Positions 22,101-55,513 of a stretch of DNA of 64,000 nucleotides are shown in pieces. The position numbers were made by a program, and so were the translations under genes. Every line of letters starts with the position of its first letter. Position 1 is the first letter of the stretch. The notes under the pieces are model-generated. The model saw only the letters and a list, made by a program, of their open reading frames with translations. It made no database searches and had not been told where the DNA came from. The stretch spans positions 168,265 to 232,264 of the forward strand of contig NW_019217919.1 in assembly GCF_002571385.2 (NCBI RefSeq), read 5' to 3'. Source of the stretch: Stylophora pistillata (lineage: Eukaryota).

Positions 22101-25100
22101 ATCAACAGGTAGTTCCTCTAAGTGCTCACCTTGTGTTAGTCTGTATGTCACTCCCTGGATGTTAAAACTATCTGCCCTTTCTTTAGCTTTGTCATAAATC
22201 CACTGAACATGGGTGGGGTCATCTCCATCAACGGGCACACCCTCTAACAAAAGCAAATGCCATTTACTTAATCAGTGACATACGACTCTTGCAAAAATAG
22301 CCTCTGCAAAGCCCTCTACCAGAATCAATAGTCAAAGAAAATGTTCATAACTCAAAATGAAAGAGTGATACCTCCAAAGGGATGTTCTTGTGGCCAAACT
22401 AATACCTTGGCATATTCCACACAGTGTTCTGGCATACGAGGAGTGTGCGCAATAGTGCACAAAGGAAAGTTAACCTATGAGACAAACAATAATAAACTAC
22501 TCAATCAACAGCACTAGTCATTGAGGCCAAGAAGAATAACCTACATTGATGAGAAGAAATAACAATTAGGCCCATCAATTATGAAAGATGTATATAAATC
22601 AATTAATAAAACTATAACTTACTTGTGGTGGATAGAGATCAAGTGTGCACTCCACACATGCCGTTAAACCTGGTATAATAACTCGTGCATTACCTTTAAA
22701 ACCTGTACAATTTATCACCATTATAAGAAAAGGAAAAAACATATTAAAAATATATAAACTGGTGTGTAATCAGTTTCCCATTTCATGCTCAACATCTCTT
22801 AAAATCCTGGTGTGGACCTTTAGCAACGCAGTATCATCTGAGGCTTTTCCCTTCAGAGAATTCCTACTTTGGCCCAATTACATACAACATGCCAGGGAGA
22901 TATTACATGTATCTGGGACATCATGACAAAAGCAATTGTCATCCCAAGGAAATAACATAACAATGACCTTTTCCAGATTTCCTTGTCAATGATGGAATCC
23001 CAGCAGTTCACACCACATTCTACCAGTCTATCTCAAGATGATCAGTGGTAAACTAAATATGGGCACATTAAGAGGACAACTGTGCACAATTATTATAAAT
23101 TTAACTTAATTTAAGCATTAAGAGGAAATTCACAGAGAGTTCAAATTTTCTTGAGTCTTGCCTTCTGTTCCACCATCTACCATGGGAATAATACTAGTCT
23201 GATCCAGTGTGCCATCATCTTCATACTCTAACAGACTAAGCTGCAACCAAACCAGAGTTTGGATTCCTTTCAAAAACTTTACTGTGATTCTTAAGGCTAG
23301 AACTGTAAAATTTATAATCATCTTATGAGTGCTGGGGAAGTAAAATAGAGTTTCAAACTTGGGGTAAATTGATTCTAATATCAAATACAATTATTGAAAA
23401 TAACAGTGGAAATGAAGTTCCGGCTCCCGGTTAGCTCAAGGGATAGAGCGCTGGACTGTAGTGCGGGAGGTCGAGGGTTCANNNNNNNNNNNNNNNNNNN
23501 NNNNNNNNNNNNNNNNNNNNNNNNNNNNNNNNNNNNNNNNNNNNNNNNNNNNNNNNNNNNNNNNNNNNNNNNNNNCTACCTTTCTATAACATCAAGAAAT
23601 GGTTAGATATTCTAGTCTTCTCGGATAGGGACGAATAAATGGAGGTCCCGTCTCCTGCAGGGTTGGGGCAGGAGACGTTAATTTCTCACACACGAGATTA
23701 CTGTGTGATGGATGTCCTCGCCTGGGGTGGGATGGGTGGGTTAGGACAGCAGGTCCACATCAGCTATTACAGCTGCCAATTAATCAACCTGCTTAAACAA
23801 ATAAATGAACTTCAACTTCAACTTCAAGCTAACTCTTACCACCATTCCATTTATCCATCTCCTTGCCACAATGGAATCTAATCCACAGACTATGAGGTGA
23901 AATCCTGCCATTAAGAATGGATGAATAAATGATCTACAGTAGTGCAAACAAGACACAAGTACACAAATCCTTCAGATATGAATGACTGTTACAATAAATT
24001 ACTTAATATGAATAAATCAAATAATATTTAACATTCTTTACATCTGACCAGCACTTAACACTCAATGTTTCATTTTGCAATTTTCAGTTTTCTATAAATC
24101 CTGTTGATTCAACTAACCTCTATAAAAATCTGCATCATGGTCTTGAATCTTTTTAAAATGTCTGTAAAAAAACTTGTCAAAGAAATTAAAGACAGAGCTT
24201 ATTTTTACCTACAGTGCATTATGCCTGTCGAGAAATCTGAGTCAAAGGTAAAAGATTTTCAGAAATTTCCTAGACTGAGAAGTTTATCTGAAGGCCACCA
24301 AAAACTTTCTTAACATGCTCAAAATAGTTAGAGTTGTCCTCTACACCATGGTTTCAGCTAATATTTAATGATTCCCATATACTTTTTTCACTTTGTAAAA
24401 CATTTCTCTTGATTATAAGAGTTAGCACTGCCAGTAACTGCCTCAATCCAATATTTCCTTGAGTAAGCCCAAAGGAACCTATTTCAAATTTGGACAGAAA
24501 GAAGGGGCGCAAAGCAGAAGGAATGCACTTAATTGAGAAGTACGTCTGTTCTATTTAAGAATTATTGACCTGTACTGATTCCCTTGTAGTTGAAGTGTAA
24601 AAGTTCAAATAAAGTGACAACAGAAACAAGTTACGGCAAGAAACAAGTAGCAAGTTATGAATTCAAAGGATACGGAGTAACATTGCAGCCTGCCACTCTA
24701 CTGTTGATAAACTCTGCAGCTACAATAGCTTTGGGTTTTCCTATATCTTTTGGTCTTAAATAAAGAAAAGACAGAACATCACGTGTCAGAAACATTGTGC
24801 CCTTACAAGAAACAACATGCACTAAAAATGTTTATCTGATGAGGGCATATTTGATCCACATTGACCAATCAGAGTTCTTTGTTTCCTCAGCTTAGCCACC
24901 AGGTAAAGTTTACTCAAATGGAGTAAACTTCACCATCAGTGGTTTGCAAAAGAGAGCAATTGTATGTACAGCTGCATGAGTAAAACATGATAATATTCAT
25001 TCAATCACCCCTTCTTTGAATTGAACTATAGCATTTTGAGGTAAAATGAGGCATGAAAATGATCAGTGTACAATTAGGATTTATGCAAAACATAAATTTC

Positions 25101-28060
25101 AGAACATAAGTCACCTAGGTAAGGATTTGAAAAAAGAATTCAAAACAGCTGCATTTAATTTTTGTAGAAAGTTTAGAAACTCCCAAAGAAAACTAATAAT
25201 ACTCCATTAAAAAAGGTTACCTGAACAAAAACTGTCTATTTAGGTTTGAAACATCTATTGTGTCCATATCAATAACATCTATGTTCCTAAATCCACACAA
25301 CGCCTGCCAAGAAAAGACGTCAACCATTACTTCAAACTTGTTTTAACCTTGAAGTCCCCAGATCCAATAATTACTTCTCCCCACTGGCTGCTATGCTGTT
25401 GCTTGATAATTAAACAGAGGAATTAAGTTTTAGATCAACAAAACATCCTCTAGCTGATAAGCTTGTTGTCTCATAATCTGTTTGCAAGATAACATATTGG
25501 AATGGGATGGAGACATTACAAGTTAATCACTCACAGAGAGGAGGGGAGGTTTAAAAGGTTATGCAATAATTAAATAATAAGCATTTTTAGTATAATTTCG
25601 GAGCTGAGCAAAGAGTTTCCAGCAATCTGATTGGTAGAGCGGTTTCTTATATGACTCTACATAAACCGCTCCACGTGGTTTCTATAACATGTTAAAATAA
25701 AAAGTTAATAAATGTTACTAAAATGTTATGATTTTAGAAATTTCTCTGTTGTTCAGCTCTGAAATTATACTAAAACAATTATTCGCCTCACATTCAGTAA
25801 ATATTGTCGAATAATCCCCTCAACTTGGTCTCGGGGATTATTCGACAATATTCACCTCGCCTTTGGCGAACAATTGTTAAATATAAGAAACTAAATAAGC
25901 ACTCACCCAAATAACAAAATAGCATAGTATGAAAATTATCACTCCAGGGTGCAGTTGTATAAAAAGAGGATAATGCTATCCAATGGATAAATGGCTATCC
26001 AGCTGATGAGTGATAGCAAAATGTACTACGCTATCCACTGGAGAGAGATTTATCTAAAGGATAGCATTGTCCAATCCTTGAACAACCAGGGCCAGTCCTC
26101 TACAAAAAATTATTTGAGGCCTTTGACTCAAAAAAGTTGGTAATCCAAGAAATATAAAAAAGCAACAAGACATGCCCTTCTTTGTAAAGTCAATACTCAC
26201 TAGATCTTTCAGTAATTCACAGCCTAATCCTCCTGCTCCAATAACCAGAATTTTAGCAGTATCAAGCATAAATTCAAGAACCTAGGAAAGAAAAGGTGAG
26301 ACAGACTTAATTTTTTAATATCTTTCATTTATTCTCACTCTATTCGCAGTACAAAAACATGGTCTATTCAATGCACGATGGAAATGATGCACATCATATA
26401 CAACCTTTAAAGTATAAAATATCCTTCTAATTGTGGCAAGTGCGTCCATCTAACTGCTGCCCATGTTTCTGTTTTTAAATGAATAGAATCTTGCCCAAAT
26501 ATCCTTTCAAAAAATAGTGCAAGAAATGCTGCTAACTGTTGCACTGAGTTTGACAATTTTTCTTTCCTTTCATGAAGACACAAAAACACTTCTAATACCA
26601 ATGTATCATGAAGGGTTTAAAAGCATCTGCAGAGTACCTTATAAATTCAATTTAACTCAGATTGCCATGATTCTGAAGAAGAAACTTCAATCACGTGCTT
26701 GTGGGGAAATAAGGGGAAAAGAACCTCCACCTTTTTTCTGTCCTTCTTCCTTCTCTCTTTAATTTGTTAGTTTCATCCCCTTCTTCCCTTTCCCTCCCCT
26801 CAAACTGAATTTGATCTCATTAATCATTATATAAAAAAAAATAATAGGTATTATTAAAAACTAGATCATTGGATAACGCAAGACTTTTCACTGGCTTAGC
26901 TATTATGGTATATGAGCCAATAAACCATAATCTACAAATATGGTAAGCGTATGCATCAGCTGAAAATTAAAAGGGAGCAAAAAAATTGAATAAAATTGAA
27001 TAATTCAATTTAGTGTTTTTAATAAAACAATTATTCCACTCACGCTTGTTGGATATGAGATGATTATAGCAAACTCCGCGCTATACGCCTCATTGGCTAT
27101 CCATCATCTCATATCCAATGCGTGCTTGTGGAACAAAAAGTAGGGGGTACAGTATTACATTGTCAAAGTGGTCCACTGAGCTGGTATACCTGTGGTCCAG
27201 GTTCAAAGTCTTGATGAGCCAAAGGCCCACTCCTTAACAAGAGTCGCTGAACATGACTCCATCTGCCTGACCAGTCACCTTTATTTTCTACCACCATTCT
27301 GAAGATATACATTCACATTACTTCTCAGAGCAAGAGAAAAGTCTTGCAGAGAATTTGTTTTAACTGTCTTTAACCCTTTAACTGCCAGGATCTGATTGGT
27401 AGTTCGTGCCTCTAGCTGCTACACATTTTCTTGTAAATTAGTTACAAGAATTTGGTGTTAGATCAAGAAAATAACTTTGTGTATTCTCAATACCTTATTG
27501 CATTTTTAAATATCTATCTCTAAAACTTTTTTAGTTATTCCCCAAAGTTACTTGTACGTCTCACTGAACACGGTTCAAAGCCAAGAGATGAAAAAAAAAA
27601 TTGATGCATAATAATTGCAGTGTCTTAATTATTTGGAGTTACCAAATAATGGTTAATAGTTTGTCACACTTTGCCCATAAAATCCCTCACTCCCTTGCTG
27701 TTTACATGGGTAATTATCCAGCCAAGATAACAATGGATGTTTTTTTAATGATTGCCATCATATCCTCCATCTGTGATATTGTTGGAAAACCTATACATTT
27801 TTAAAATAACTCAGGCTTGTGACGGATTTCTACGTTGCACATTTTGAAAATAAAAGATATTCTTTCTGTTTCATACCACACAATCTTTGGGCTGCGCGAT
27901 TCCAGTGACACAACTAGGGTTCCATGTAAGCATAAATCGAAACGATGGCACATCTTAATGGCTAGCAACAGTTACACAAAACACAAACCTAGTATTCGTA
28001 AAAATAAGTTTACAATAAGGCTACATACGGAGTTTCCGAAGAATTCTCCTCTACCTCCAT
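19102..28060 (-). CDS. UBA3: NEDD8-activating enzyme E1 catalytic subunit, multi-exon
   Basis: ATG at 28060; exon peptides [82 protein letters not shown], catalytic [30 protein letters not shown]; TGA at 19104-19102. Confidence 0.95.
23423..23760 (+). mobile_element. tRNA-derived SINE, probably of Nin/Deu-core type, interrupted by an N-gap
   Basis: tRNA-like head TAGCTCAAGGGATAGAGCG...GAGGGTTC; core AATGGTTAGATATTCTAGTCTTCTCGGATAGGGACGA resembles the Nin/Deu conserved domain (recalled, not searched). Confidence 0.65.
24162..24673 (-). other. U12-type (minor spliceosome) GT-AG intron in UBA3
   Basis: Donor CC|GTATCCTTT; branch-like TTCTTTGAC shortly before the acceptor AG; flanking exons join in frame (VTP|HFKKIQD). 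Confidence 0.85.
25585..25882. repeat. Hairpin-ended interspersed repeat; copies at ~46668-46966 and partially at ~52203-52283
   Basis: High identity between copies; long inverted repeat AATATTGTCGAATAATCCC...GGGATTATTCGACAATATT. Confidence 0.8.
25944..26095. mobile_element. Short MITE-like element; related termini at 30845-31081
   Basis: Imperfect inverted termini CAGGG..CAGTTGT / ACAACCAGGGCCAG and internal GGATA/TATCC palindromes. Confidence 0.55.
26850..27133. repeat. Second hairpin-ended interspersed repeat
   Basis: Inverted repeat TTGGATATGAGATGA...TCATCTCATATCCAA with outer CCAC/GTGG arms. Confidence 0.6.
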
Positions 28061-28362
28061 TATGCCCAGCTGCAACCAGCGGCCAACAAGGCAGCCGCGC
28101 CTCGTTAACAAGAAATTGAGTGACCGAGCCTTCGAGACACAACCATGGATGACGTCTGGAGCTAAAAAGTTACTTATTTCATTTCCCCTTCCCATGGAGG
28201 AAAAGATTATCCAATAGAAGACAAGGCCGTCAGCTACGAAAATAACTCTGCAGAATTAGCACTCTATTTGATTTATATTGGAGAACTCTGCTGTGTTTAT
28301 AACTCTGACACATTCATCGAGCTTTAAAGAAGACGGCAGAAGCGAAAATAAGGTAGCAGAGC

Positions 28363-29757
28363 ATGGCTTTTTCTAATCTGCAATCGATGTTCAAGTTAGC
28401 TCAGAGGCCTACACATATAATCAGTGACAGACGAGGCCAAGAATTTGAGCTCAAGTCAGACGCAAAAGATGCCTTGTTGATCGTAAAGAACTGCACAGAT
28501 TGCCATGCAAGTTTACAAGAAAAAGCTGCCAAGTTACTCATCGAGAAATGTGACAACTTGGTGCTAGACGTTAAATGCACGCTGATATCTGGTGTACTGG
28601 AACTTCTGAACTGCAAGAAAATAGTGCTAAATTTACTTGAAGGTGGTCAGGTTAGGAATACTTTTAAATCCGGTGAACAAGTCTTGTTTTTTTAGAACCA
28701 CTTCACTTCCAGGGGTGACCAAATAGGAACTTCTCCAAAACATAACGATACATTTTTGGGCAGAGTGGTGATGGGAGGAAAGAAAAATATCAGTCTGGCA
28801 GGACTGCTCAGGAACCACTTAATTCTCAATGTTAAAATTGTAAGAAATGTGTGGTAGACAGTGAGAAGTCTTATGAGCTCGAGCAGAAAGGTTAACTTCC
28901 AATCAGTAAAGTTTCAAATTCGAGAGAAATTTTGGAGGTATGTGGTAATGTATGGTAAGCAAGGTGAAGGTGTCATAAACGTTGCACCTCTCTCCCTGGG
29001 ATGTTTACAGGTTTCTGTATGATAAATCTTGAACTGCAAAAGTTGGAGTCAGCCCAAAAATAATTATACTATAAAATTAAATGTTAGAGTCAAATGACAA
29101 GCTCAGCATCTGAATCAAGAGTCACTTCTGTCAAGGTATCCATCCATAACAAGTTATCAAACATTTATTTTCACTTAGAAAATTTGAATGCAAGACTAGA
29201 AAAGTTACCTCTAATTGTCTTGAGCTGCAAACATTTTCTCAGTAAAGCATAAAGGATCCCCAACTCCAAAGTTAAACAAAACTCACCCAAAATTTTCAAG
29301 CTACTCAAGTTAGTAATTTAAAATCTAAATCTTTTGTTTCCAACAGATTCCAACCATCATGGCTGACAGTACATCAGATCTGTTGATCACTCTGCTGAGG
29401 CATTCCCAGTTTGAATCTATGTATCTTCATGGACATTCAAGTAATATTGAGGTCTGCGTAGGTGAAGAAACCTCAACAAAATATCCAGTGTCTTTTCCAT
29501 CTGATGTCCCATCACACTTTCAGTTTGTTGTATCTTGGGAGAAAGAAGAGGAAGGTTGGAAGCTTGTTTGTGAAAAGGTTGTTAGGGATGGTGTGTTCCC
29601 AACTACAGAGCGTAAAGTGAAGGAAGCTGAAGAAAGAAAAGCTAGAGACTTAGAGAAAATGGTAACAGCTCTTTTTGATAGTATCAAGATTACCCCAAAA
29701 GAACAACAGAAAGACAAACCAAGTCCAGGTTCTGCAGCTGAGACTGAAAGTAAATAA
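28363..29757 (+). CDS. CAP C-terminal (CARP beta-helix)-like domain; exons 28363-28650 and 29347-29757, or spliced onward to the sirtuin exon
   Basis: LIVKNCTDC..KLLIEKCDNL..VLELLNCKKI..GQ|IPTI..SSNIEV..QFVVSW..KLVCE parallels CAP_C (IYKC..ITVDNCKKL..VEIINS..VPTI..SSEMNV..QFKTLW..KLVT); phase-0 GT-AG intron. Confidence 0.75.
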
Positions 29758-30844
29758 ATTTTTATCAGGATCTAAGTAAGCCCCTATTATCAGCCATGGC
29801 AGGTTTGCCTTGTTGGTCAGTCTTTTTTTATGCACACAAATGCTCATCAATTGGTTTGTTTTTTTCATTCGTGATAAACATTATGAGATATCCCGAAATA
29901 AATGCTACTCAAGAAGAATCTCCTGTCTAAATCTTGTAAACTTTAAACCAAAATAGAGCATTTCAAGGAATCATTGTATGCAAGGGTATGTACATGTAAA
30001 ATGAGGACTATTTTAAAAATTTTTTGAGTGAATGTTAAAATTCTTACATTTCTCTCACTACTCTTTGCAAAGTTGTTTCTGTGTGATTTTCAAGACCTCC
30101 TTGGTAAGGTTCATAAGTAAGACTCCAAGGGCAGAGGTGCTTACTTAAGATACTATTTCAGTCCAAGAGTGACTAATTAGAGGAATTTTTCCTCACAATA
30201 TCAAATAAATTTTCAATTAAAAAGGTGATAAGGATAAAGGAAAACATATAAAAGAGGGGATATTGTTTGGTTTGAAACCAAATTCTCCAAGCTACAATTG
30301 TGTAAAATGGGTGGTAGCTGGTTTAGAGAAGTGATATTTAGGTGTGGGAGTGAACAGAAGCCAACCTGTTACCTCAATTCCTGGAACTACCATCACAACA
30401 AGAGAAAAATATAGTTACACTTGGGAGTTACCTTGATTCATTATGCGTAGATTACTAACTTCCTCAGAAGCAGTTTAGATGTAGGGCAGAGAAGGTCAAT
30501 GGGTAGTGCTTATGGGGAGCGTACTGAAATTCTCTTAACATAAAAGTGATATTGATTATAGCCCTGTTAATTAGTGACCTTCCTTTCTGTGTTGAATATA
30601 CTTATGTTCCACCCATGACACTGTGAGTGGCATTCTTGCTTGGATATCATTCCTGCATCCATTTCAAATTTTTCTTTCAGCTGGCAACTGAATAAGAACT
30701 TGTTAATCATGCAACATTTCCCTATGAAATCAATACATAATTTGGACACAACTAATTGAGAAGAGACTAAATCATTGGATTGAAGTTGTGCTTTTGAATT
30801 TAATCAACACATTCTCCTGGCTATTTTACCTGAAAAGTACACAC

Positions 30845-31081
30845 CAGGGCCAGGTTTTTCAAAGGTGAGTTAAGATAACCCAGGGTTACCGTAATTGCAG
30901 ATCTGAAAGCTTTAAAATCAAATCACTTTAATTTCATTTGTTTACAATTTGGTGATTGAATGCTCTAAGAAGAATTGGGAAAATTATCTTAAAATGGCTT
31001 TTGAACAGAGAAATATAAAAACTTGGATTAAAATTTAACCCTGGGTTAGTGCTGATCGGTCTTCGAACAACTGGGCCCAGG
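30845..31081. mobile_element. MITE
   Basis: Termini CAGGGCCAGGTTTTTCAAAG / CTTCGAACAACTGGGCCCAG with inner AACCCAGGGTT/AACCCTGGGTT. Confidence 0.65.
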
Positions 31082-31207
31082 TCTATAATCAAAGTAACAG
31101 TGACACCGATTTCCTTATCCCATGTGTTCTTGAAAAATTGCATCTTTTTTTTCAGTGAATTGGTCAACTGGTAAATGCCTTAACTATAGATATCTTTAAA
31201 CCCACAG

Positions 31208-32424
31208 AAAAACCAAGCCCAAGTGGTAGTGGCCATCATAACATTAAGAATGAGGATGACAAGAAAGAGTTCTTTGACTCCTCAGAAGAGCTGGAGCAAA
31301 AGATTGATCTTCTTGCAAAATGGGTCAAGGAGAGTAAACACTGTGTTATGTTCACTGGTGCAGGAATCAGCACAAGCACAGGTATCCCAGATTTTCGAAG
31401 TGGCATGAACACTGTGCTGAAGACAGGCCCTGGTTTATGGGAGTTACAAGCTAAAGGCGTCACTCGCCAGCCAGGTAAAGTTACTCCCATGTTAAAGGCA
31501 ATACCCTCGCCTTCCCACATGGCCATCGTGAAACTCCACAAGGAAGGGTTGGTAAAGTTCACTGTCAGCCAAAATGTTGATGGTCTCCACTTGCGCAGTG
31601 GTATTCCCAGTGAGGAGCTTGCTGAACTTCATGGAAATACCAACTTAGAAAAGTGCACTACCTGTGGTGCTAAATATTTGAGAGATTTTGACACAAGAAC
31701 TGCAACAAGAGTTCATGACCACTTGACTGGAAGGTCCTGTGATAACATCAAGTGCTGTGGACCTTTAGTGGACTCCATTATAAACTTTGGCGAGAGTCTG
31801 CCCGATGATGACCTGATGAAGTCATACCAAGAAGCTGAAAAGTCAGACTTGATGATTGCACTTGGATCCAGTCTTCAGGTTTATCCAGCTGCAGACATTC
31901 CAGCCACTGTCATCCGCAGCAAACAGAAACTGGTGATCTGCAATTTGCAGAAGACCCCACTCAGTTCACTGAGTTCGCTTCACATACACAGTCAGATAGA
32001 TACAGTAATGAGAGGGCTTATGGAGAGGCTTGGCTTGGAGATTCCACCCTTCAGAGTTCAGCGTCGCTTTGCAGTTGAGACAAGTCAGGATAAAATGTTG
32101 ATTGAAGGCCTTGACCTTCAAAGCAACACTCCATATTCTTTCTTAAAACAGGTATCTGTGCATATGTCACAGGAGGTTGAAGGTACAAAGAAAGTTATTG
32201 ATGAAAAAATTCTCTCTAAGGAGCCTCTGGAAATGTGTTTCAGGGGAAGCTTAATAAGTATCTCACAAGCTACTCCATTGATTGCAGAGATAGAGTTGGG
32301 TTTCCAGGGTCACTATGGTGAACCAAGCTTGTCCTTTACCAATTCTATTAGTAGCTTTGGAAAGGCCTTCTTTCATGCAGAGTATGATTTAAATAAAGGG
32401 GAGTGGTCGCTGAAAAAAGAATGA
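31208..32424 (+). CDS. Class IV (SIRT6/7-like) NAD-dependent deacylase, copy 1; large terminal exon lacking its own suitable start codon
   Basis: FTGAGISTSTGIPDFR, SQNVDGLH, ELHGN, CxxC/CxxxxC zinc ligands, DSIINFGE, LGSSL, NLQKT, C-terminal FQGHYGEP; frame is open upstream of the listed ATG (KKEFFDSSEELEQKIDLLAKWVKESK). Confidence 0.92.
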
Positions 32425-34015
32425 AAACGCATGAAAACACTGATAGACTTGATTCATTGTACTTCTACTTATGTTTTAAGATTTTTGTTCTGCTAACCTG
32501 TAGAATTTCATGACTATTTAAGAGAACATTTATTAATGGATGTGATATGTTATTGAATAACATGCAAGGGTGTTGGAAAGTCTGCAGATTCTTTTATGAA
32601 TAATTATTCTGTGTAAAAAAGCTTTATTACCATGTTAGGTAAGAGCATTCATCTTTTTTTTTCCTCTTGAAGAAGAGGCTTGCTCAGTGATAACAGCTAC
32701 AATCATTGTTGGTCCCAAGGACAATACTATGTCTACAGAACTAAACTATATTGTTGTAAGTGTATCAGGTTACAAGTCCTAAAGCTCCCTGACAGCTTTT
32801 AAAGCTCTGATAACTTTTTTATTGTAATAAAAACAATAGATGTTAGTGAGCATATTGCCATATTTGTATTAAAAATCTTGGTATTTTAGACATTTGCCTT
32901 TGGCCGTGATTATCAGCAATGGGAATTGGGGCAAAAGCGTATTTTATATTTTATAATAGCCAAGTGTAACACATCCCCCATTAATACTTTACCCTCCCTC
33001 CACCACAGACAGACCGATTGTCCCTCCAGTGACTTTAACACAATCTCAGGTTTGCAAATTATTCTTATCTTCAGTGAAAGGTTGTCTTTTACTACTCAAT
33101 TCAAACTCTCGGAAAGCAACCCTCATAAAATCAGCTAACGTGGGTGCACGTGGCCCATAGGAACATACATGACTGTCAGTCAAAACCTAGCAATGTATGA
33201 ACTTATTTAGCGCTTCGTATGTAGCACAACTTACTGTGCAAAGTAATGCAAAACTGGAAGAGAGAGGCACAGCTATCCTCGCCCATCTATCTTGCCATGG
33301 GTTCCAAAGGATGAGATTTTCCAGAAATCAAAAAACCAAAAGATTGTTTGAAAGCTTAAGAAGTCATTAAAAACTCAATTTTAGCAATTGTTTTCATCAA
33401 TTGTTTTTGACCTACATTTGTTTTCTTCTGTTTTGTTTCCTTTTTTCCAATTTGGTAGAGAAAACGTTAACCCAAAAATCTTGTTTGATTACTATAATGT
33501 GATGTAGATTAACACTTATTGACCTTTTCCCCTAATTGTTTTCTCTTACTGTTTTTCACTGTTGAAAGAGGCTAGTACCCAGTCTTCTCCTTCCGGCTTA
33601 GATTGGATAAGCTGTGAAACTCCTTGCTAATTTATTTATATCAGCACTATTTAAAGTCGTAGCATAGAAACACAACTTGAACCTGCGGAACCCTTTTCAA
33701 AGAAGGACGAGATCATCATTAAGTAGGTTATGATTTTATTTACATCATTTATATCTTAAAAATCGAACAAATTTCGAGATCAGTAACTCCTAATTCCAAT
33801 GTGTGTGGGATAGCCCACGAAACTTCAGATTTATTTTTGTTGGTTTCTGGTCTCCATCGTTACAACTTTTATAATGCAGGACTAACTTACTTTCATGTAG
33901 ATCCCAAGCACACATGAAGGCTTTCTCAAGAAATTACAGCTGAAACATTTTTCCGGTGATATTTGCCAGGATCGAAGGGTTTAATTTTGCCGCGGAAAAA
34001 TCTGGTGGCTTCGAA

Positions 34016-34552
34016 TAGTAGTAGTAGTAGTAGTAGAAGTAGTAGAAACTTTATTAGAGTGTCGAAAAAAAACCGTCTAGCCAGGGAACAAATCCCCTAC
34101 TAATTTGGGGACACCAATTAGGGGAGAATATACAAACTAAATACAGTAGTAGATAAAATATCTATAGTTAACTTATTAAGAGATTTATAGTAAAAATACA
34201 CAGAAGTCAAAATGAACAAAGGCTACAGCCTGCGCAGCCATCATCTAAAAGTTCACTTATATTGAGTTGGCGTATCTTGCTTTTAAACGACGTTAGGGTT
34301 GTGACGTCCCTGATACTCTTGGGTAGTTTTGTCCATAGCTTAGGCCCTAAATATCTAATAGAGTGCTTGCCATAGGTGACTGTCTCATACCTAGGTATAG
34401 AGAAATCTGCTTGCCGCAGATTGTAATTACTATTTGGTTCTTTAAAGATGTTACTTATATATGCAGGGCACAGTTTATGCCTTGCTTTATACATAAGTAT
34501 GCACAGATCCTGTAAGCGACTATTTAGTAGTGTTGGCAGATCTGCCTTCATA
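34016..34552 (-). mobile_element. 3' end of a non-LTR retrotransposon between the two sirtuins
   Basis: ORF2 tail YNLRQADFSIPRYETVTYGKHSIRYLGPKLWTKLP...SFK; AATAAA followed by a (TAC)n tail. Confidence 0.8.
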
Positions 34553-35502
34553 CCCGGTCTCGAATGTTAGATCGTGGTAAATCAACGTTTATATTAGAGA
34601 ATATAAACAATACTGTGACACAAATATCTAAGTTTAATCGAAACCGTAATTAAATATTCGCTGTGTAGTGTAATTTGTAAAAACTAGCTACTGGGCGTTG
34701 AATTTTGTCATGCTTTTCGCTTTCTTCCTTTTTCTCAATTTCGGTTAAGTCCGGTTCTATACGGAAATATATATATTTCAATATTTCAAGTATTTTTTTT
34801 TCCAATTTTTCATTCGTATATTTTTTTCTAAATGAGAAACAGATGAAATTCCACCGCTGGCCGGGAGCTTCGCAGATAACACGAAATTGGCGCGAAGACT
34901 TGTCCGGTGTCTTAGGGCAAAGGGGACAGAGGTGGGGAGGTATTGGCGAGAGGCAATCAATATATTACTCAATTATATTTATTTAATGTGAGTAGTTAGA
35001 TATTGTGCACAGAGACTGAGTTCAATGTTAAAATTTATCAATTAACTTTAAACCTGTTTTGTCAGACAGAGTATGAAATTGTACTTTTCCATAGAAGTTG
35101 CCTAAACTGTTACAAAGAAAGTAGTAGCTAGCAATCACTTGAACCCTATGCACTGTGATTATTAGTTGGGTGAGATGGACGAAAAGTTTGTTGAAATTGT
35201 TTTGGTGGTTAAATAGGGGTGTGATCACCGGCAATCTTCCCCATTACCCAAATCTCGAGATCCCTGGTTCACCAATGGTGAAACTTCAAAGACCATGCAC
35301 CAAAAGAAGTCAAATGGTACATTACCGCTGGAAACAGAACCAGTTGTGTGAGACAACAACAAAATTTTAACTTTAAAACTTAGTTGTTAAACTTCTGGCA
35401 GCACACACAACTGAAAATCATGGTAAAAGTCAGCTCTTTATTTTTTTTTTTCTGTTGGTGATTTTTTATTCAGTTAAACTTTTTATCATCAGCTCTGTCA
35501 AC

Positions 35503-36909
35503 ATGGCAGTAAATTTCACACCCAAAAAATCAAATTTGAAGGCGTCTGGATCGTCCATGGAAGCAATGTTTGCCAAAGCTCAGAAAACCCAAGCTGCTCT
35601 TCAAAAAGACTACAAGAATGCCCCAACAACCTCGCCTAGCAAAGCTGGTTCAAAAGCTCCCAAACCAAGACAAGGGAAGGCTTCAGGCTCAAAACCATCT
35701 CATGGTCCTGCTGCTTCCAAACCAAAACCAAGATCAAATGCAATTTCAAGTGAGTTTGAGAAGAAGGAGTATTTTGATGAAGAAGATTTGCTGTCAGAAA
35801 AGATCCAGGTTCTGGCTCAGTGGATCCGTGAAAGTAGATACTGTATTGTTTTTACAGGCGCTGGTATTAGCACAAGTACTGGTATTCCTGATTTTAGGAG
35901 TGGTGTGAACACAGTCCTCACCACTGGCCCAGGGGTGTGGGAGCGCAAGGCTCATGGCATCAAGTTACCCTCACAGCAAAAAAAAGTACAAAGTGTATTG
36001 AAGGCTGTGCCATCACCATCACATATGGCAATAGTTAAGCTTGTGAGGGAAGGCCTAGTGAAGTTTGTGGTGAGCCAAAATACTGATGGCCTGCACAGGC
36101 GATCAGGCCTCAATCCCAGGTGCCTTGCTGAGCTGCATGGTAATACAAATATGGAACACTGTCTAAAGTGTGGGTCAAAGTTCATGCGTGACTTTAGAAC
36201 CCGTACAGCCAAAACTGTACATGACCACTTGACAGGCCGTACCTGTGATGACCCCAATTGCCACGGGCCTCTTGCTGACTCCATAATAAACTTTAATGAA
36301 GACCTACCAGAGGATGAACTAGACAGTGCATTTGAAAATGCAAAACTTTCAGATCTATGCATAGTTTTGGGGTCAAGCCTTAGGGTTTACCCAGCTGCTG
36401 ACATACCAGGGGACATGATCAAAAGAGGAGCTAAAGTGGTCATTGTGAACCTTCAGAAGACACCTTTCAACAAAAGATGTGCTTTGGAAGTTCACTCTAC
36501 AATTGATGTTGTTTTACTCAAACTTTTGAAAGAATTAGGCCTTGAAGTGCCACAGTTTCAGCTTAAACGATGCTTCCAAGTGGATGTCAGGAATGACTCA
36601 CTGGTGATTCAAGGACTGGATCCAGCCACAAAAAAACCCTACTCATTTTTGAAACAAGTGAAATTTGAGATTCCTTCTCTTAGGATAGATAAAAAAGTGA
36701 TGAGGGAGCCCTTTGAAGTCAAGTTCCCCAGGAGAGTAGTTCTGTCCAAGGAGAATCCAATGCCCATAAGTCTTACTCTGAGCTTTCAGGGGCATTATGG
36801 GGAACCTCACTTGAAAATTGGAAAGAACATGGAAGAAGTTGGACTGATTGTCTTCTTGCTTACTTTTGATGTCACCACAGTTGAGTGGGAAACTGAGGTC
36901 TTGGAGTAA
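35503..36909 (+). CDS. Class IV (SIRT6/7-like) NAD-dependent deacylase, copy 2; intronless CDS with a K/S/P/A-rich basic N-terminal tail
   Basis: ATG at 35503 (AACATGG); same complete sirtuin motifs and FQGHYGEP tail as copy 1. Confidence 0.93.
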   Translation: MAVNFTPKKSNLKASGSSMEAMFAKAQKTQAALQKDYKNAPTTSPSKAGSKAPKPRQGKASGSKPSHGPAASKPKPRSNAISSEFEKKEYFDEEDLLSEKIQVLAQWIRESRYCIVFTGAGISTSTGIPDFRSGVNTVLTTGPGVWERKAHGIKLPSQQKKVQSVLKAVPSPSHMAIVKLVREGLVKFVVSQNTDGLHRRSGLNPRCLAELHGNTNMEHCLKCGSKFMRDFRTRTAKTVHDHLTGRTCDDPNCHGPLADSIINFNEDLPEDELDSAFENAKLSDLCIVLGSSLRVYPAADIPGDMIKRGAKVVIVNLQKTPFNKRCALEVHSTIDVVLLKLLKELGLEVPQFQLKRCFQVDVRNDSLVIQGLDPATKKPYSFLKQVKFEIPSLRIDKKVMREPFEVKFPRRVVLSKENPMPISLTLSFQGHYGEPHLKIGKNMEEVGLIVFLLTFDVTTVEWETEVLE

Positions 36910-38040
36910 TAATGAAACTTGTTCAATTATGGCAACTGAAGGCTGAACATAAATGTTATTAATATGTTGAGTATTGATAAAGCCATGAATTGTGTCTTTC
37001 TATCAATTTACATTGCATTTTAAAGTGTATTACATTTTAAGTAAATGTAATGCTAAAAATATGTTTCATCTTTCTAATTTTCCACAATAGACAGGGTTTT
37101 AAAATGTTTTAAAGAGGGCATCAGACTCTGCTAAAGTAGGTGACTGTGAAAAGCTCACCAAGGGTCAAAAGGTAATTTTGACCAATGTAACCAGCAACAT
37201 GTTCTCAAGTAGCTGGTGGAACTCTGGCAGTCACCTGCTGGTTTGAGTCTCAAGCCTGCAAAGTTTCTGTTGTGCCACAAGGGCTAATGAGAACCTGCTT
37301 GTTTCTAGAGAGGCATCTACTCATGATGATTTCTGTGAAGGGTGAATTTAAATAAAACTTGATCATCTTTAACTCGCTTCTANNNNNNNNNNNNNNNNNN
37401 NNNNNNNNNNNNNNNNNNNNNNNNNNNNNNNNNNNNNNNNNNNNNNNNNNNNNNNNNNNNNNNNNNNNNNNNNNNNNNNNNNNNNNNNNNNNNNNNNNNN
37501 NNNNNNNNNNNNNNNNNNNNNNNNNNNNNNNNNNNNNNNNNNNNNNNNNNNNNNNNNNNNNNNNNNNNNNNNNNNNNNNNNNNNNNNNNNNNNNNNNNNN
37601 NNNNNNNNNNNNNNNNNNNNNNNNNNNNNNNNNNNNNNNNNNNNNNNNNNNNNNNNNNNNNNNNNNNNNNNNNNNNNNNNNNNNNNNNNNNNNNNNNNNN
37701 NNNNNNNNNNNNNNNNNNNNNNNNNNNNNNNNNNNNNNNNNNNNNNNNNNNNNNNNNNNNNNNNNNNNNNNNNNNNNGTAACAAGTCAATCCAGTGTGGA
37801 GGTATTTCTAGGGTCTTTGGACAGTTTCTTCCGACTTCAGTGCAATGAAAATTTTTTTGTTTCAAAAAAGTCATCAATTCTCCCAAGAGTCTCCCTGAAT
37901 TCATTCAATAGAAATTTGATGAAACTATTTGATTATAAACCTTTCTTTTTCATTTGGCTGCTACAAATTTAGTTAAAACGTTTTTTCGTAATGCCCCCCT
38001 TTAATAATGAAAAGAATGTTGTGGAACACCTCATGGACCT

Positions 38041-40600: not shown

Positions 40601-41126
40601 CCTCGACTCAATTTCAGTTTATAGAAAGGAGTATCTTTACGATTTGAATGGCGAAAATTGATTCGCTTTATTGACGATTGTTGGAAAGCCTTCAAACTGA
40701 GCAAGAAGCTCTGGCCTTAGGAAAAGGCGTGGGTGAAGGGAGAATTTTCAGTGACAGCTCACATTTCTTTTAGTGGTGACGCGCTATTTGCATAAGAAGA
40801 GTCTCAGAAAGCGAAATTTCTCGCCATACTTGTAAATGTTCCTTTGGCGCATCCTTGAACGACATTTCATAGAATCTGAACAATAGAAACAATTTTAAAC
40901 AAGCAACACACTTCTGTCCATTTTATTTTCCAGTTTTAGTTTCCAATATCAGCTTACCGCTAAGTCGAGAAAATGATGGCTTGCGAAAACAAAACAATGA
41001 CAGCCATAAGTTTGCCAAGAGGTTAAATTGTAGTTTCGTCCATAAACTTTAAACCGAAACATTGTGTAACTGGAAGTCCACACCAAAGCTAAAGAGCGAT
41101 TTTCATCTACAAACAATATTGACACG

Positions 41127-44100
41127 ATGGATACTCTCAAGGAATCACTTGCACCAAAAACCTTCAACAAAATTAGCCATCTCGCAGTTTTAGTTTGGTT
41201 TGTGATCGGTGCAATCTTCCTTGGCATTTTTACTGAAGTGGAAAACACCGAATCCAGGTTTGATTTCCGTTGTGGCGGAGCGGAGACCGAAAACACTGAC
41301 CTCGTCCGTGGAGACTGCTTCCAGCAATACGAGGAGCAGTACAACAAATATGGTGTACCTATCTATGGCTTCGTGACCATCAATTTCTTCCTCATTGCAC
41401 TTGTTTGTGCTATTTTCTCCCAAATAGTGAGAAAGACCGTTGATGAACTATCGCCAAGCACTCGTAACGGCGACCGTGAGAGCCAGTCGCGCCACAGAGA
41501 GAAGCAAAAATCAACGGGAAAACAGCTTTTCATCGCTTACTGCTGTCAACTGTCCACAAGACTTGTTTTGGGAGTTCTTTTCATGATCCTTCAAACTCAG
41601 TTGCTTTATCCTTTAAGGTTTCCCTATAAGTTTGACTGTTATTTAACCTCTGGAACCAATCAGCCAAGGAACTTATCTGACGCCGCCCAAAACTCCACTC
41701 AGTTTCACAAATGTAACAATCAACGAGCGGAAAAGAAAACCTTCTGGATGTACGCTGTCCTAGCAGTTAATGGAATTTATGTCGCTGGAATTCTAATTGA
41801 AACCATCTACATTTTGTCACGGGCACGCGTAGAAACGAAGTTCATGAAAAACTCAGAGTTCCTTAAAATTCATCTAAATCCCAACCATGACAAGTCGTAT
41901 CAGGAACCTCAAAAGCAAGAAGGTAGAATACAGGTTGTTGTAATGCAGCCAAGAGTTCATGACAACCTTCCGACGCAACCCGGGTTGCACCCAGAACCTC
42001 AGAGGCAAGATGATGTTGCCCAATCGCAGCCACGAGAGCGAGAACACCGTCCAATCCAAGTCGAAATACACGTACACCCTCAAAAGCAAGATGATGTTAT
42101 TCCACCACACCCAAGAGAGCAAGAACACCGTCCGACCAAAATGGAGTCTTACCAAGAACCTCAAAGACAAAATGATGTTGTCCCACTACCGCCACGAGAC
42201 CAAATCGGGTCGCATCAAGAACCTCAACAGCCAGAGGGAAGGAGTGAACATGATATTATTTCTCCAGTGCAAAGGGAACCCGAACAGCTCCAAAACTCGA
42301 ATCTACAACTATTCATCGCCGAAACAAAGAAAATAATTAAAGAAAATACCCAACACCTTTTTGAACTCCAACCACCGTTTTTAGGAAACCCAGGCGAGCA
42401 AACGGCAGTTAAATATTTCACTCTGGATCAGATCTACACAAATCTTGTGGTCGTTCCAAATAGAGCTACATATGACTTTACTGCAAACAGAGAGGAGCAA
42501 CTCAAAGTTTATCCAAGGCCGCGCACGGAATCACAACTTAAAAGCCTGGAAGACCTCCTAAATGATAAAAGTAAAAAGGTTCTGATTGTCGGTCGCCCCG
42601 GAATCGGTAAGACATTTTGTTGTACTAAACTTCTCAGAAATTGGGCGTGTAAAGAAGTTTCTGAAATCCATTTTGATCCTGCTTTCTTAATAAAATTTAG
42701 AAGATTCAACTCAGACAACCACCTTAGCCTCAGGGAACTGTTGGTTCAGTCAGAGCATTTTCCTTCAGATCACCTGGATGATGAAGTCTGGAAATACATC
42801 CTGCAGCACCCTGAAAGTGTACTTATTCTTTTCGACGGATTTGATGAATTCAATCACAACGCAAACATCATCCAGTGGCCGGCCTCTAGTCCCAAAAGCA
42901 TTGAACAGAAGGTGCCTCTCCAAAGCCTCTATTACTGGCTTGTGACCGGGAAACTACTAAAAAATGCTTTAATTTTGACAACCACGAGACCAACGGCTTT
43001 GTCGAGCATCAAACGCCTTCCGTTCGACAAAACCTGCGAAATTCTGGGCTTCACAACCGAGCAAATTAAAGAATATGTCTCCAGATTTTGCGGAGATGAC
43101 AAGCAAGCAGGCGAAAGACTATGGCGACACATCAGCAGCAACATGAACTTACTTTCGCTCTGTTATATCCCCGTGAATAGCTTCATCATGTGCTCAAGTC
43201 TGTTCGAAATATTGCAGTTCGAAAGTTCCGCTAGTGCTACCCTCCCTTCCGAATTAACAACCCTTTACATGATTGCAGTGACCGTGTTTTACCTTAAACA
43301 CACAAAAGAATTCCGCGATAATGAGTCCACTCGCGAACACTTAGATTACAATAACTTGCCACCAGAAGTGGAGGAGAAATTCGAGAAACTTGGAAAAGTG
43401 GCGTTTGAAGGAATTAAAAAAGGAAAGCTGATCCTTGGAGGAAACGAAGTACGCGGGATGGAAGACAGCGCTCTCTTTCACCGCCTACCCGACTGTCGAA
43501 GTGATGCGTTAAAACGCGAACCACAATTCTGTTTCATTCATCTCACAATGCAGGAGTTTTTCGCTGCAAGGCACCTAGCGAACAACGTGAGTGAAACAGA
43601 ATTGAGGAACTTTGTTACAAAGAACAGCGAGAACGGCAAATGGCAACTAGTGATTCAGTTTCTAGCAGGACTAATGAACGATAAAGATGAACTACCGAGC
43701 GAAATTATCACCGACCTTCTTCCTGTGGAAACTGAAGAGGAAGAACGCTATGACGACGACGAACAGACAGGGAATGAAGAGGAATGGAAAGTAACCTGTT
43801 GGCCGACTAAGGACAAAAGAGATTTGGCAGTGACACTGTGTAAATGTGTAAACGAAAGTAAAAAGATGGAAATCATAGTCCAAAGAAAGCTACAACAAAT
43901 TAACTTTAATTGTGTAAATTTTATTGCAAGTCACCTCACAGCTGTGGAATGCTCTTCGTTAATAAATGTAATTAAGAATATTGAACAAATTTCACATTTA
44001 GATTTGATGGACAATAACATGGACTCATTAGGCTGTCTCGAGATTGCTAAATTGTTAATATATTGGAAATGTCGACTAAGCTGGTTAAACCTCGCAGAGA

Positions 44101-44873
44101 ATCAACTGACAGACGAAGCAGTAAAGCATTTAGCTAACGCCATCACAAACAACAACTGTCAGCTACGCTCGTTAAACCTCTCAGAAAATAACATCACAGA
44201 CACAGGAGCACAGCACTTGGCTGAAGCCATCACAAACAACAACTGTCAGCTACGCTCGTTAAACCTCTCAGAAAATAACATCACAGACACAGGAGCACAG
44301 CACTTGGCTGAAGCCATCACGAACAACAAGTGTCAGCTACACACGTTAAGCCTCTCGTTCAATTACATCACAGTCACAGGAGCACAGCACTTGGCTGAAG
44401 CCATCACAGACAGCTGTCAGCTACGCTCGTTAAACCTCTCAAAAAATAACATCACAGACACAGGAGCACAGTACTTGGCTGACGCCATCACAAAAAACAA
44501 CTTTCAGCTACGCACGTTAAACCTCTCACAAAATAACATCACAGACACAGGAGTACAGCACTTGGCTCACGCCATTACAAGCAACAACTGTCAGCTACAC
44601 ACGTTAAACCTCTCATACAATAACATCACAGACACAGGAGCACAGCACTTGGCTGACGCCATAACAAACAACGACTGTCAGCTACACACGTTAGACCTCT
44701 TAGGCAATAACATCACAGACACAGGAGCACAGCACTTGGCTGACGCCATTACTAACAACAACTGTCAGCTACGCTCGTTAAACCTCTCATACAATAACAT
44801 GACAAAAGTAGGTAAGCAACATGCACGTAATTTAGTGAGCAAGAGTCAGTCTAAGTGTAAGCTAGATATTTAA
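41127..44873 (+). CDS. Single-exon NLR: connexin-like 4TM domain (aa ~1-232), P/Q/E-rich repeat linker, NACHT, RI-like LRRs
   Basis: 1248-aa ORF; four hydrophobic helices; Walker A GRPGIGKT, Walker B LILFDGFDE, sensor TTTRP, LCYIPV, winged-helix FIHLTMQEFFAA; ~10 LRRs of 28 aa. Confidence 0.95.
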   Translation: MDTLKESLAPKTFNKISHLAVLVWFVIGAIFLGIFTEVENTESRFDFRCGGAETENTDLVRGDCFQQYEEQYNKYGVPIYGFVTINFFLIALVCAIFSQIVRKTVDELSPSTRNGDRESQSRHREKQKSTGKQLFIAYCCQLSTRLVLGVLFMILQTQLLYPLRFPYKFDCYLTSGTNQPRNLSDAAQNSTQFHKCNNQRAEKKTFWMYAVLAVNGIYVAGILIETIYILSRARVETKFMKNSEFLKIHLNPNHDKSYQEPQKQEGRIQVVVMQPRVHDNLPTQPGLHPEPQRQDDVAQSQPREREHRPIQVEIHVHPQKQDDVIPPHPREQEHRPTKMESYQEPQRQNDVVPLPPRDQIGSHQEPQQPEGRSEHDIISPVQREPEQLQNSNLQLFIAETKKIIKENTQHLFELQPPFLGNPGEQTAVKYFTLDQIYTNLVVVPNRATYDFTANREEQLKVYPRPRTESQLKSLEDLLNDKSKKVLIVGRPGIGKTFCCTKLLRNWACKEVSEIHFDPAFLIKFRRFNSDNHLSLRELLVQSEHFPSDHLDDEVWKYILQHPESVLILFDGFDEFNHNANIIQWPASSPKSIEQKVPLQSLYYWLVTGKLLKNALILTTTRPTALSSIKRLPFDKTCEILGFTTEQIKEYVSRFCGDDKQAGERLWRHISSNMNLLSLCYIPVNSFIMCSSLFEILQFESSASATLPSELTTLYMIAVTVFYLKHTKEFRDNESTREHLDYNNLPPEVEEKFEKLGKVAFEGIKKGKLILGGNEVRGMEDSALFHRLPDCRSDALKREPQFCFIHLTMQEFFAARHLANNVSETELRNFVTKNSENGKWQLVIQFLAGLMNDKDELPSEIITDLLPVETEEEERYDDDEQTGNEEEWKVTCWPTKDKRDLAVTLCKCVNESKKMEIIVQRKLQQINFNCVNFIASHLTAVECSSLINVIKNIEQISHLDLMDNNMDSLGCLEIAKLLIYWKCRLSWLNLAENQLTDEAVKHLANAITNNNCQLRSLNLSENNITDTGAQHLAEAITNNNCQLRSLNLSENNITDTGAQHLAEAITNNKCQLHTLSLSFNYITVTGAQHLAEAITDSCQLRSLNLSKNNITDTGAQYLADAITKNNFQLRTLNLSQNNITDTGVQHLAHAITSNNCQLHTLNLSYNNITDTGAQHLADAITNNDCQLHTLDLLGNNITDTGAQHLADAITNNNCQLRSLNLSYNNMTKVGKQHARNLVSKSQSKCKLDI
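44085..44800 (+). repeat. 84-bp coding tandem repeat (LRR array)
   Basis: Unit CAGCTACGCTCGTTAAACCTCTCA...AACATCACAGACACAGGAGCACAGCACTTGGCTGAAGCCATCACA repeated about 8 times. Confidence 0.95.

Positions 44874-48106: not shown

Positions 48107-55513
<7,407 letters not shown>

What the first reader, a model, noticed from the sequence alone, without database searches (positions are those of the whole stretch)
28363..32424. Probable CAP_C beta-helix-sirtuin fusion gene
Seen: sirtuin copy 1 stays homologous to copy 2 upstream of its first in-frame ATG, which falls inside the first Rossmann strand. The frame is closed by TGA at 31156 with no earlier Met, so an upstream exon is required. Candidate acceptors (AG ending at 31189 or 31207) are both phase 1. 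The CAP_C-like exon has phase-1 donors just before its stop (G|GTTCTG at 29728, A|GTAAAT at 29749). Splicing would give a ~630-aa CAP_C-sirtuin; read-through gives a stand-alone CAP_C protein. Established: CAP_C binds G-actin and dimerises. Inference: an actin- or cytoskeleton-targeted deacylase, an architecture I do not recognise.
Basis: partly seen in the sequence, partly recalled or inferred. Interest (0 to 1): 0.7.

Follow-up and report, generated by a model that had tools for sequence, protein, structure and literature searches.

The report
Coral SIR8 CAP-domain sirtuin fusion
This coral gene really splices a domain shaped like an actin-binding protein's onto a sirtuin enzyme domain and is the already published SIR8, but it also ends in an apparently unreported domain predicted to fold like a YEATS acyl-lysine reader, likely makes a short enzyme-free form, and may act on the actin cytoskeleton, which is untested.

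Summary
The fusion is real and already known. RNA contigs join 28650 to 29347 (7 of 7 RNA-like runs) and 29749 to 31208 (4 of 7, four studies). The spliced 635-aa protein is identical to RefSeq XP_022790004.1 (Stylophora pistillata). Gold and Sinclair 2022 list that accession as SIR8 with an upstream CAP_C domain.

The predicted N-terminal fold is closest to the CAP CARP domain (Z 16-17). Catalytic sirtuin motifs are intact. Actin targeting is unproven: CAP's actin-contact residues are only partly kept and there is no free C-terminal tail.

Additions not found in my searches:
(2) Intron-2 read-through, encoding a 232-aa CAP-like-only protein, is seen here and in other corals.
(3) Sponge-type and protist-type relatives carry a thymosin/WH2-like motif before the sirtuin; corals lack it.
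(4) CAP-like/sirtuin fusions in both orders occur outside the animal SIR8 clade.
(5) Bdelloid rotifers carry SIR8-clade proteins.

Verdict: known gene, modestly extended.

The parts
28363..28650 (+). Exon 1 coding part (aa 1-96), first half of the CAP_C/CARP-like beta-helix; RNA contigs begin at about 28126-28163 (one at 28247)
28651..29346 (+). Intron 1 (GT..AG, phase 0)
   Evidence: joint in 7 of 7 RNA-like runs
29347..29749 (+). Exon 2 (aa 97-230): rest of the beta-helix, beta-hairpin with conserved R176/G178/T182-T183, long helix 184-209, low-confidence linker
29750..29757 (+). Read-through tail and TAA stop of the 232-aa CAP-like-only form; AATAAA at 29753, 29897 and 30204
   Evidence: matching spliced 232-aa ORFs in public contigs
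29750..31207 (+). Intron 2 (GT..AG, phase 1), often covered unspliced; holds a repeat at about 30845-31089 with a second donor at 30864 (weak joint to 31208 in X2 only, side 28 nt)
31208..32424 (+). Exon 3 coding part (aa 231-635), intronless; 3' UTR contigs reach about 32660-32890, AATAAA 32826, ATTAAA 32868
31357..31887 (+). SIR2 domain with GAGIS, PDFR, QNVDG, HG (His372), zinc cysteines 380/383/408/413-414 and GSSL; NLQ (aa 476) follows just after
31405..31428 (+). 8-residue insertion after the PDFR loop, absent from SIRT6; probably the published ~9-aa SIR8 motif
   Evidence: the figure's letters were not readable
32053..32421 (+). C-terminal beta-sandwich (aa 513-635), predicted YEATS-like fold
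35503..36909 (+). Sirtuin copy 2, an old paralogue with its own N-terminus and a non-coding first exon (joint 33722->35493 in X14 only); a separate gene here
27188..28091 (-). 5' exons of the head-to-head neighbour (UBA3-like); a candidate start ATG at 28058-28060 lies about 300 bp from the SIR8 ATG
   Evidence: joints; a downstream exon matches UBA3; linking the two is inference

Best explanation
This is the three-exon coral SIR8 gene, spliced into a 635-residue protein with a CAP-like beta-helix domain, a class IV sirtuin domain and a predicted YEATS-like tail, which likely works as an NAD+-dependent lysine deacylase that the beta-helix likely tethers to actin or actin-bound proteins. Shown: gene structure, identity with SIR8, intact catalytic motifs (about 0.97). 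Predicted: the two folds. Inferred: enzyme activity (about 0.9), actin-side targeting (about 0.45), and that intron-2 read-through yields a 232-residue enzyme-free protein that would compete for, or pair with, the full-length form (about 0.5).
For: Junctions. Identity 635/635 with XP_022790004.1, listed as SIR8 with CAP_C upstream in Table S1 of PMC9486876. 9 of the 120 listed homologues carry both Pfam domains, from corals, an anemone, sponges and unnamed sources. N-domain model pLDDT 85; best folds are CAP CARP domains, Z 16.4-16.7, rmsd 2.4-3.4, 129-138 aligned, ahead of TBCC/RP2 at Z 10.1-11.6 (same order). Positions matching CAP K365 (K54) and D372 (E61) are kept in anthozoans (11 of 11 K; 10 E and 1 D of 11); K365A/N367A/D372A abolishes ADP-actin binding in CAP (PMC5951797 Table 1). 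A thymosin/WH2-like motif precedes the sirtuin in 10 of 13 scorable sponge-type and protist-type fusions against 1 of 110 unfused hits, recalling CAP's WH2+CARP pair. An HMM from this coral's own thymosin repeats scores >=5 bits in 3 of 20 fused, 0 of 55 unfused and 10 of 3750 shuffled segments. Precedent: CAP binds lysine-acetylated actin, and HDAC6 releases that complex's inhibition of INF2 (10.1101/509133, abstract only).
Against: Only 13-20% identity to CAP. N367 is replaced (A56), Y353 is lost (K42) and Y351 is I40 here. Mouse numbering was transferred by spacing through the coral's own CAP, not from the mouse sequence. CAP ends near model residue 172-178, so the free tail needed for rapid nucleotide exchange is absent. 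The thymosin-like motif is missing in 8 of 8 anthozoan fusions, this one included. It was defined after seeing the sequences, and Pfam Thymosin hits only 1 of 6 segments (E 0.088, under cut-off). The same beta-helix family also fuses to SEC-C (15 of 57 scanned), TPR (5) and FKBP (1) domains, so its partner may not be actin. The YEATS-like tail and closest kinship to SIRT6 point towards chromatin. Gold and Sinclair found no ligand-binding evidence around CAP-C in their model. The fusion joint was not listed in 3 of 7 RNA-like runs.
Confidence: 0.45

Rival explanations
1. The fusion is real, but the beta-helix binds something other than actin (a family-specific partner, tubulin machinery or a small GTPase), and SIR8 is a SIRT6-like chromatin or general deacylase whose YEATS-like tail handles substrate.
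For: A family-specific surface is nearly invariant in fused and unfused members (K57 in 53 of 53, R176 in 52 of 53, T183 in 51 of 53), and K57 aligns with S in the coral's CAP. The YEATS-like tail. Best solved relatives are SIRT6 (E 2e-56) then SIRT7. Other fusion partners.
Against: The fold is closer to CAP than to TBCC/RP2 by about 5 Z units. The thymosin-like motif co-occurs with the domain in relatives. The YEATS aromatic cage appears absent.
Confidence: 0.4
2. The main product of the locus is the 232-aa stand-alone CAP-like protein; the sirtuin is a conditionally spliced add-on, and the fusion can be lost or rewired.
For: Intron 2 is covered by contigs in 7 of 7 RNA-like runs while intron 1 is mostly bare; X11 and X3 each have one contig spliced at intron 1 that runs more than 1 kb past the donor. 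10 of 14 members of this protein's cluster are short forms (nine of 232 aa, one of 185 aa) that end at the read-through stop, and 13 of 15 in the Acropora cluster are 226 aa, including RefSeq XP_015774806.1. The Acropora fusion uses the copy-2 sirtuin lineage. Proteins of 181-284 aa with this fold occur in giant viruses (best TM 0.60).
Against: Contigs give neither levels nor ends, and retained intron 2 may be nuclear pre-mRNA. Cluster counts depend on how contigs break. Read-through tails of a few residues are what chance gives (mean 14 codons to a stop). The fusion is conserved from sponges to corals.
Confidence: 0.13
3. Two separate genes: a CAP-like gene and a sirtuin gene with its own promoter in 29760-31200.
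For: No fusion joint listed in X11, X3, X18; contigs cross the acceptor unspliced in X11 (from 31033) and X18 (from 31133); the strong-looking AG at 31155 is followed by an in-frame TGA.
Against: The joint is present in four studies; no in-frame ATG precedes the first Rossmann strand; 635-aa fused ORFs exist in public contigs and RefSeq.
Confidence: 0.02

Closest known systems
SIR8 class IV sirtuins (Gold and Sinclair 2022, PMC9486876)
   Same: This protein is XP_022790004.1 of their Table S1; CAP_C upstream of SIR2; groups with XP_011406188.1 and XP_031565139.1.
   Different: They describe two domains. In what I read they do not mention a C-terminal YEATS-like domain, a thymosin-like motif, isoforms, rotifers or ciliates (0 occurrences of 'isoform', 'rotifer', 'ciliate').
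CARP domain of cyclase-associated protein (CAP/Srv2; PF08603; PDB 1k8f, 1k4z, 6fm2, 2b0r)
   Same: Same predicted beta-helix fold (Z 16.4-16.7); positions matching K365 and D372 kept.
   Different: 13-20% identity; N-terminal rather than C-terminal; N367 and Y353 positions changed; no free C-terminal tail; extra hairpin and long helix. The coral has its own true CAP elsewhere.
SIRT6/SIRT7
   Same: Best solved sequence relatives; NAD+- and zinc-binding motifs and catalytic His kept.
   Different: 8-aa insertion, two extra domains; the coral's own SIRT6-like and SIRT7-like genes are separate multi-exon loci.
YEATS domain (YEATS2, GAS41/Yaf9, ENL/AF9, Sas5, Taf14)
   Same: All 8 chains with Z>=8 among 48,161 are YEATS (Z 8.4-10.1, rmsd 2.5-3.6, 93-101 aligned); next fold 7.4.
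   Different: No Pfam YEATS hit; sequence score against the coral's own YEATS domain is within shuffle range, and the H-x-S-aromatic and G-W cage motifs do not align; Foldseek gave no E<=0.001.
CAP-like proteins of giant viruses and unnamed eukaryotes
   Same: Same fold and size as the 232-aa read-through form (Klosneuvirus 230 aa, TM 0.60; Atlas clusters of 230-247 aa, scores 0.92-0.94).
   Different: 12-14% identity; function not established in anything I read.

Membership tests
SIR8 | Listed member of the published clade | tested here: met
   0 mismatches to XP_022790004.1, named SIR8 in Table S1 and Fig. S3 labels
SIR8 | CAP_C domain upstream of SIR2 in one transcript | tested here: met
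   joint 29749->31208 in 4 of 7 RNA-like runs; fold
SIR8 | ~9-aa SIR8-specific motif | tested here: inconclusive
   an 8-aa insertion absent from SIRT6 is present (117 of 120 hits), but the letters of Fig. S3 were not readable
SIR8 | Groups with sponge and anemone SIR8 in a tree | tested here: met
   38-row clade, SH-aLRT 99, quick tree only; the careful search did not finish and was not rerun
Class IV sirtuin (active enzyme) | GAGxS, PDFR, QNxD, catalytic HG, four zinc Cys, GSSL, NLQ | tested here: met
Class IV sirtuin (active enzyme) | NAD+-dependent deacylation or ADP-ribosylation | not testable with these tools
   needs an assay
CAP CARP domain (PF08603) | Beta-helix fold closest to CAP | tested here: met
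   Z 16.4-16.7 against 10.1-11.6 for TBCC/RP2
CAP CARP domain (PF08603) | Primary actin-interface residues K347/Y351/Y353 and K365/N367/D372 | tested here: inconclusive
   K54 and E61 kept; D36, I40, K42, A56 differ; mapped by spacing
CAP CARP domain (PF08603) | Free C-terminal tail that promotes nucleotide exchange | tested here: not met
   the chain continues about 55 (short form) or 460 (long form) residues past CAP's end
Cyclase-associated protein (whole protein) | N-terminal half and WH2 domain before a C-terminal CARP domain | tested here: not met
   the domain starts at residue ~17 with nothing before it
YEATS domain | Beta-sandwich fold of YEATS type | tested here: met
   predicted model pLDDT 95; top 8 matches all YEATS
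YEATS domain | Acyl-lysine cage (H/S/aromatic loop and G-W/Y motif; PMC7797077 passages) | tested here: inconclusive
   motifs do not align in a weak 3.2-bit alignment; no residue-level structural alignment was available
WH2/beta-thymosin motif | Helix plus LKxT-type motif in this protein's linker | tested here: not met
   absent in the window protein and in all 8 anthozoan fusions; present in 10 of 13 relatives

The most novel reading that the evidence does not exclude
SIR8 is the animal branch of an ancient eukaryotic actin-deacylase module: CAP-like beta-helix plus thymosin/WH2-like motif plus class IV sirtuin, assembled in both domain orders and present in amoebozoans. It gained a YEATS-like tail and, in corals, is tuned by intron-2 read-through that makes an enzyme-free competitor. 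It would be an NAD+-dependent eraser of actin acylation, linking energy state to the cytoskeleton.
Probability: 0.25. Interest if true: 0.75.

Novelty: already known. Interest (0 to 1): 0.33.

Why it matters
SIR8's function is an open question by its describers' own account. The added anatomy makes it testable: an actin-binding assay on aa 1-212, an acyl-peptide screen with and without the YEATS-like tail, and isoform counting by long reads. The wider spread (bdelloid rotifers, ciliates, protist-type fusions) would also revise the stated origin near the animal/choanoflagellate split and the stated loss in bilaterians, if it survives a careful tree and contamination checks.

Tried and rejected
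- Alternative catalytic exons in this species (CAP-like exon 2 spliced to copy 2): no such joint in the 4 runs laid over 27100-37350, of which 3 are RNA-like. Contigs drop rare forms, so this is not proof of absence.
- Use of the AG at 31155 or the donor at 29775: no joint listed, and the product has stops. Selenocysteine or read-through of TGA 31156 is not needed.
- Homodimer prediction of aa 1-212: no answer, score 0.00, alignment not used; no evidence either way.
- Complex with actin: not run, because no full-length actin was obtained.
- Genomic loci of other corals: the metagenome scan found no relative among 371 pattern matches, so codon-level conservation of the read-through tail was not tested on DNA.
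- Region search with P0069 aa 10-215 returned only itself.
- PDB sequence searches with the N- and C-terminal domains gave nothing significant.
- C2 domains top the Foldseek list for the tail by E-value but with TM <=0.28, so I rejected them.
- The last CAP exon was misplaced by MAFFT; the tail comparison rests and inspection by eye.
- The tree of the beta-helix domain was poorly resolved and does not show whether the fusions arose once or several times.
- Earlier findings of this scan: none.
Full report
1. Observation. The sirtuin frame opens after TGA 31156, its first in-frame ATG (31348) lies in the first Rossmann strand, and similarity to copy 2 starts about 45 residues earlier. Both candidate donors and both candidate acceptors are phase 1.

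2. Transcripts. I laid 8 of the 24 listed runs, all as contigs. Seven behave as RNA; only X11 is on record as RNA. One (X15) is continuous and without joints, like DNA. Intron 1 is removed in 7 of 7. The joint 29749->31208 appears in X1, X2, X4 and X14, four studies, and is not listed in X11, X3 or X18. Splicing 28363-28650, 29347-29749 and 31208-32424 gives 635 aa without a stop, with 0 mismatches to P0220 = XP_022790004.1 of Stylophora pistillata. Two assembled-read proteins of 635 aa differ from it at 4 and 8 positions.

3. A second form. Intron 2 is covered by contigs from about 29720 to 30500-31000 in 7 of 7 RNA-like runs, while intron 1 is mostly bare. In the three RNA-like runs laid further out, 32914-33597 is empty. 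X11 and X3 each hold one contig spliced at intron 1 that runs more than 1 kb past the donor, and X11 and X18 cross the acceptor unspliced. Read-through stops at 29757 and gives 232 aa. Spliced ORFs of 226-236 aa that end this way occur in this cluster (nine of 232 aa among 14 members), in the Pocillopora cluster (P0127), in Acropora (13 of 15, including XP_015774806.1) and in two unnamed clusters. With the whole intron retained, no exon junction would follow the stop, so junction-dependent decay would not apply (established knowledge, recalled). Contigs show neither ends nor levels, so retention, intronic polyadenylation and unprocessed RNA cannot be told apart. A weak joint 30864->31208 (X2 only, 28-nt side) would be unproductive.

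4. Known identity. 9 of the 120 best-listed homologues (of 2987) carry SIR2 and CAP_C. Gold and Sinclair 2022 (PMC9486876) named SIR8. I read parts 1-2 of 5 of the text, keyword passages, and part 1 of 5 of the supplement; the letters of Fig. S3 are a picture and were not visible. They noted CAP-C upstream in about half of their sequences, called its role unclear, and listed XP_022790004.1, XP_011406188.1 and XP_031565139.1. A follow-up search found no other SIR8 paper among the 20 of 23 listed (listing only).

5. Anatomy. (a) aa ~17-209: AlphaFold model of the 232-aa near-identical P0221, pLDDT 85, a beta-helix, hairpin and long helix. Closest solved folds are CAP CARP domains, then TBCC/RP2; the closest viral models are giant-virus CAP-like proteins. 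Of the six primary-interface residues in Table 1 of PMC5951797 (passages), two are matched (K54, E61) and four differ. I transferred the numbering by spacing through the coral's own CAP. The free tail is absent. (b) SIR2 domain: all catalytic and zinc motifs present; nearest solved relative SIRT6; an 8-aa insertion is shared by 117 of 120 hits and absent from human and coral SIRT6. (c) aa 513-635: model pLDDT 95; all 8 chains with Z>=8 among 48,161 are YEATS domains. Foldseek was not significant but gave its best TM (0.58) to Sas5 YEATS. Pfam does not see it, and the cage motifs described in PMC7797077 (passages) do not align (weak alignment). The tail is found in 115 of 120 hits, by a profile built partly from these hits, and in 0 of 13 protist-type fusions. 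Three searches of open-licence PMC and bioRxiv for a sirtuin-YEATS link gave 1 listing on another topic, 0 and 0. Subscription journals, InterPro and AlphaFold DB were not searchable, so it may be recorded there.

6. Wider family. A profile of the beta-helix found 378 representatives. I scanned 57 of the 150 listed, mostly the longer ones: 13 also carry SIR2 (4 with the beta-helix first, 9 with the sirtuin first), 15 carry SEC-C and 5 TPR. The Atlas cluster nearest one of them is eukaryotic, commonest Discosea, SIR2 100% and CAP_C 24%, which is a lead only. The 7 whose loop is readable lack the SIR8 insertion, and all 12 placed in the tree fall outside the 38-row clade, unresolved. A thymosin/WH2-like motif precedes the sirtuin in 10 of 13 scorable sponge-type and protist-type fusions (2 of 15 dropped for lack of the anchor motif), 0 of 8 anthozoan fusions and 1 of 110 other hits. 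The motif was chosen after the fact. The independent HMM test is weaker (3 of 20, 0 of 55, 10 of 3750 shuffles), and Pfam gives one sub-threshold hit in six. A search for such amoebal architectures in print listed nothing on point (listing only).

7. Copy 2 and evolution. Copy 2 (35503-36909) has its own non-coding first exon in one run and no joint from the CAP-like exon. In the quick tree (63 rows; careful search unfinished; long-branch warnings) copies 1 and 2 are old paralogous lineages. The Acropora fusion XP_029214425.2 uses the copy-2 lineage; this rests on NCBI models only, and loss of copy 1 in Acropora was not tested. Six bdelloid rotifer proteins nest inside the SIR8 clade, and ciliate proteins carry the insertion but lie outside it. 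The paper, on its own sampling, has SIR8 lost in bilaterians.

8. Mechanism. Shown: splicing, identity, motifs. Predicted: folds. Inferred: an NAD+-dependent deacylase delivered by the beta-helix to actin or actin-bound proteins (0.45), with the short form as a possible competitor. The precedent is the CAP/acetyl-actin complex whose inhibition of INF2 is released by HDAC6 (10.1101/509133, abstract and outline only). The main rival, a non-actin partner with SIRT6-like chromatin or general substrates, is nearly as likely (0.4). Coral SIR8 lacks the thymosin-like motif, so the actin case is weaker here than in sponges.

9. Verdict. Real, already known and annotated; interest 0.33, carried by the YEATS-like tail, the short form and the wider distribution rather than by the fusion itself.

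Noticed in passing
window 27188-28091 (-) and 23133-23390 (-): A UBA3-like gene (NEDD8 E1 catalytic subunit) lies head-to-head with SIR8; RNA contigs of the two start within about 35-100 bp of each other, suggesting a shared promoter; two alternative first-exon joints.
   Followed up: partly
P0248, P0051, P0256: In Acropora NCBI models, the CAP-like exons join the copy-2-type sirtuin, while assembled-read proteins are mostly the 226-aa short form: possible loss of copy 1 and recapture of the paralogue, or an annotation artefact.
   Followed up: partly
P0058, P0063, P0070, P0075, P0082, P0097: Bdelloid rotifer sirtuins nest in the SIR8 clade; some carry EF-hands.
   Followed up: partly
P0115: Unnamed SIR8-like protein with two zf-UBP domains in place of the CAP-like domain.
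   Followed up: no
P0396-P0494: The same beta-helix family occurs with SEC-C, zf-MYND, TPR, MORN and FKBP domains.
   Followed up: no
window 41070-44873 (+): Intronless 1267-aa ORF with a weak connexin-like N-terminal region, NACHT and LRRs.
   Followed up: no
window 46089-46385 and 51623-51919 (-): Two identical 98-aa open frames 5.5 kb apart: a repeat or an assembly duplication.
   Followed up: no
window 30845-31089 and 34070-34550: High-copy repeats inside intron 2 and upstream of copy 2's coding exon; the first supplies a strong GTGAGT donor.
   Followed up: partly
G000:C113:554944-564139: A gene with at least 13 tandem thymosin-beta repeats.
   Followed up: no
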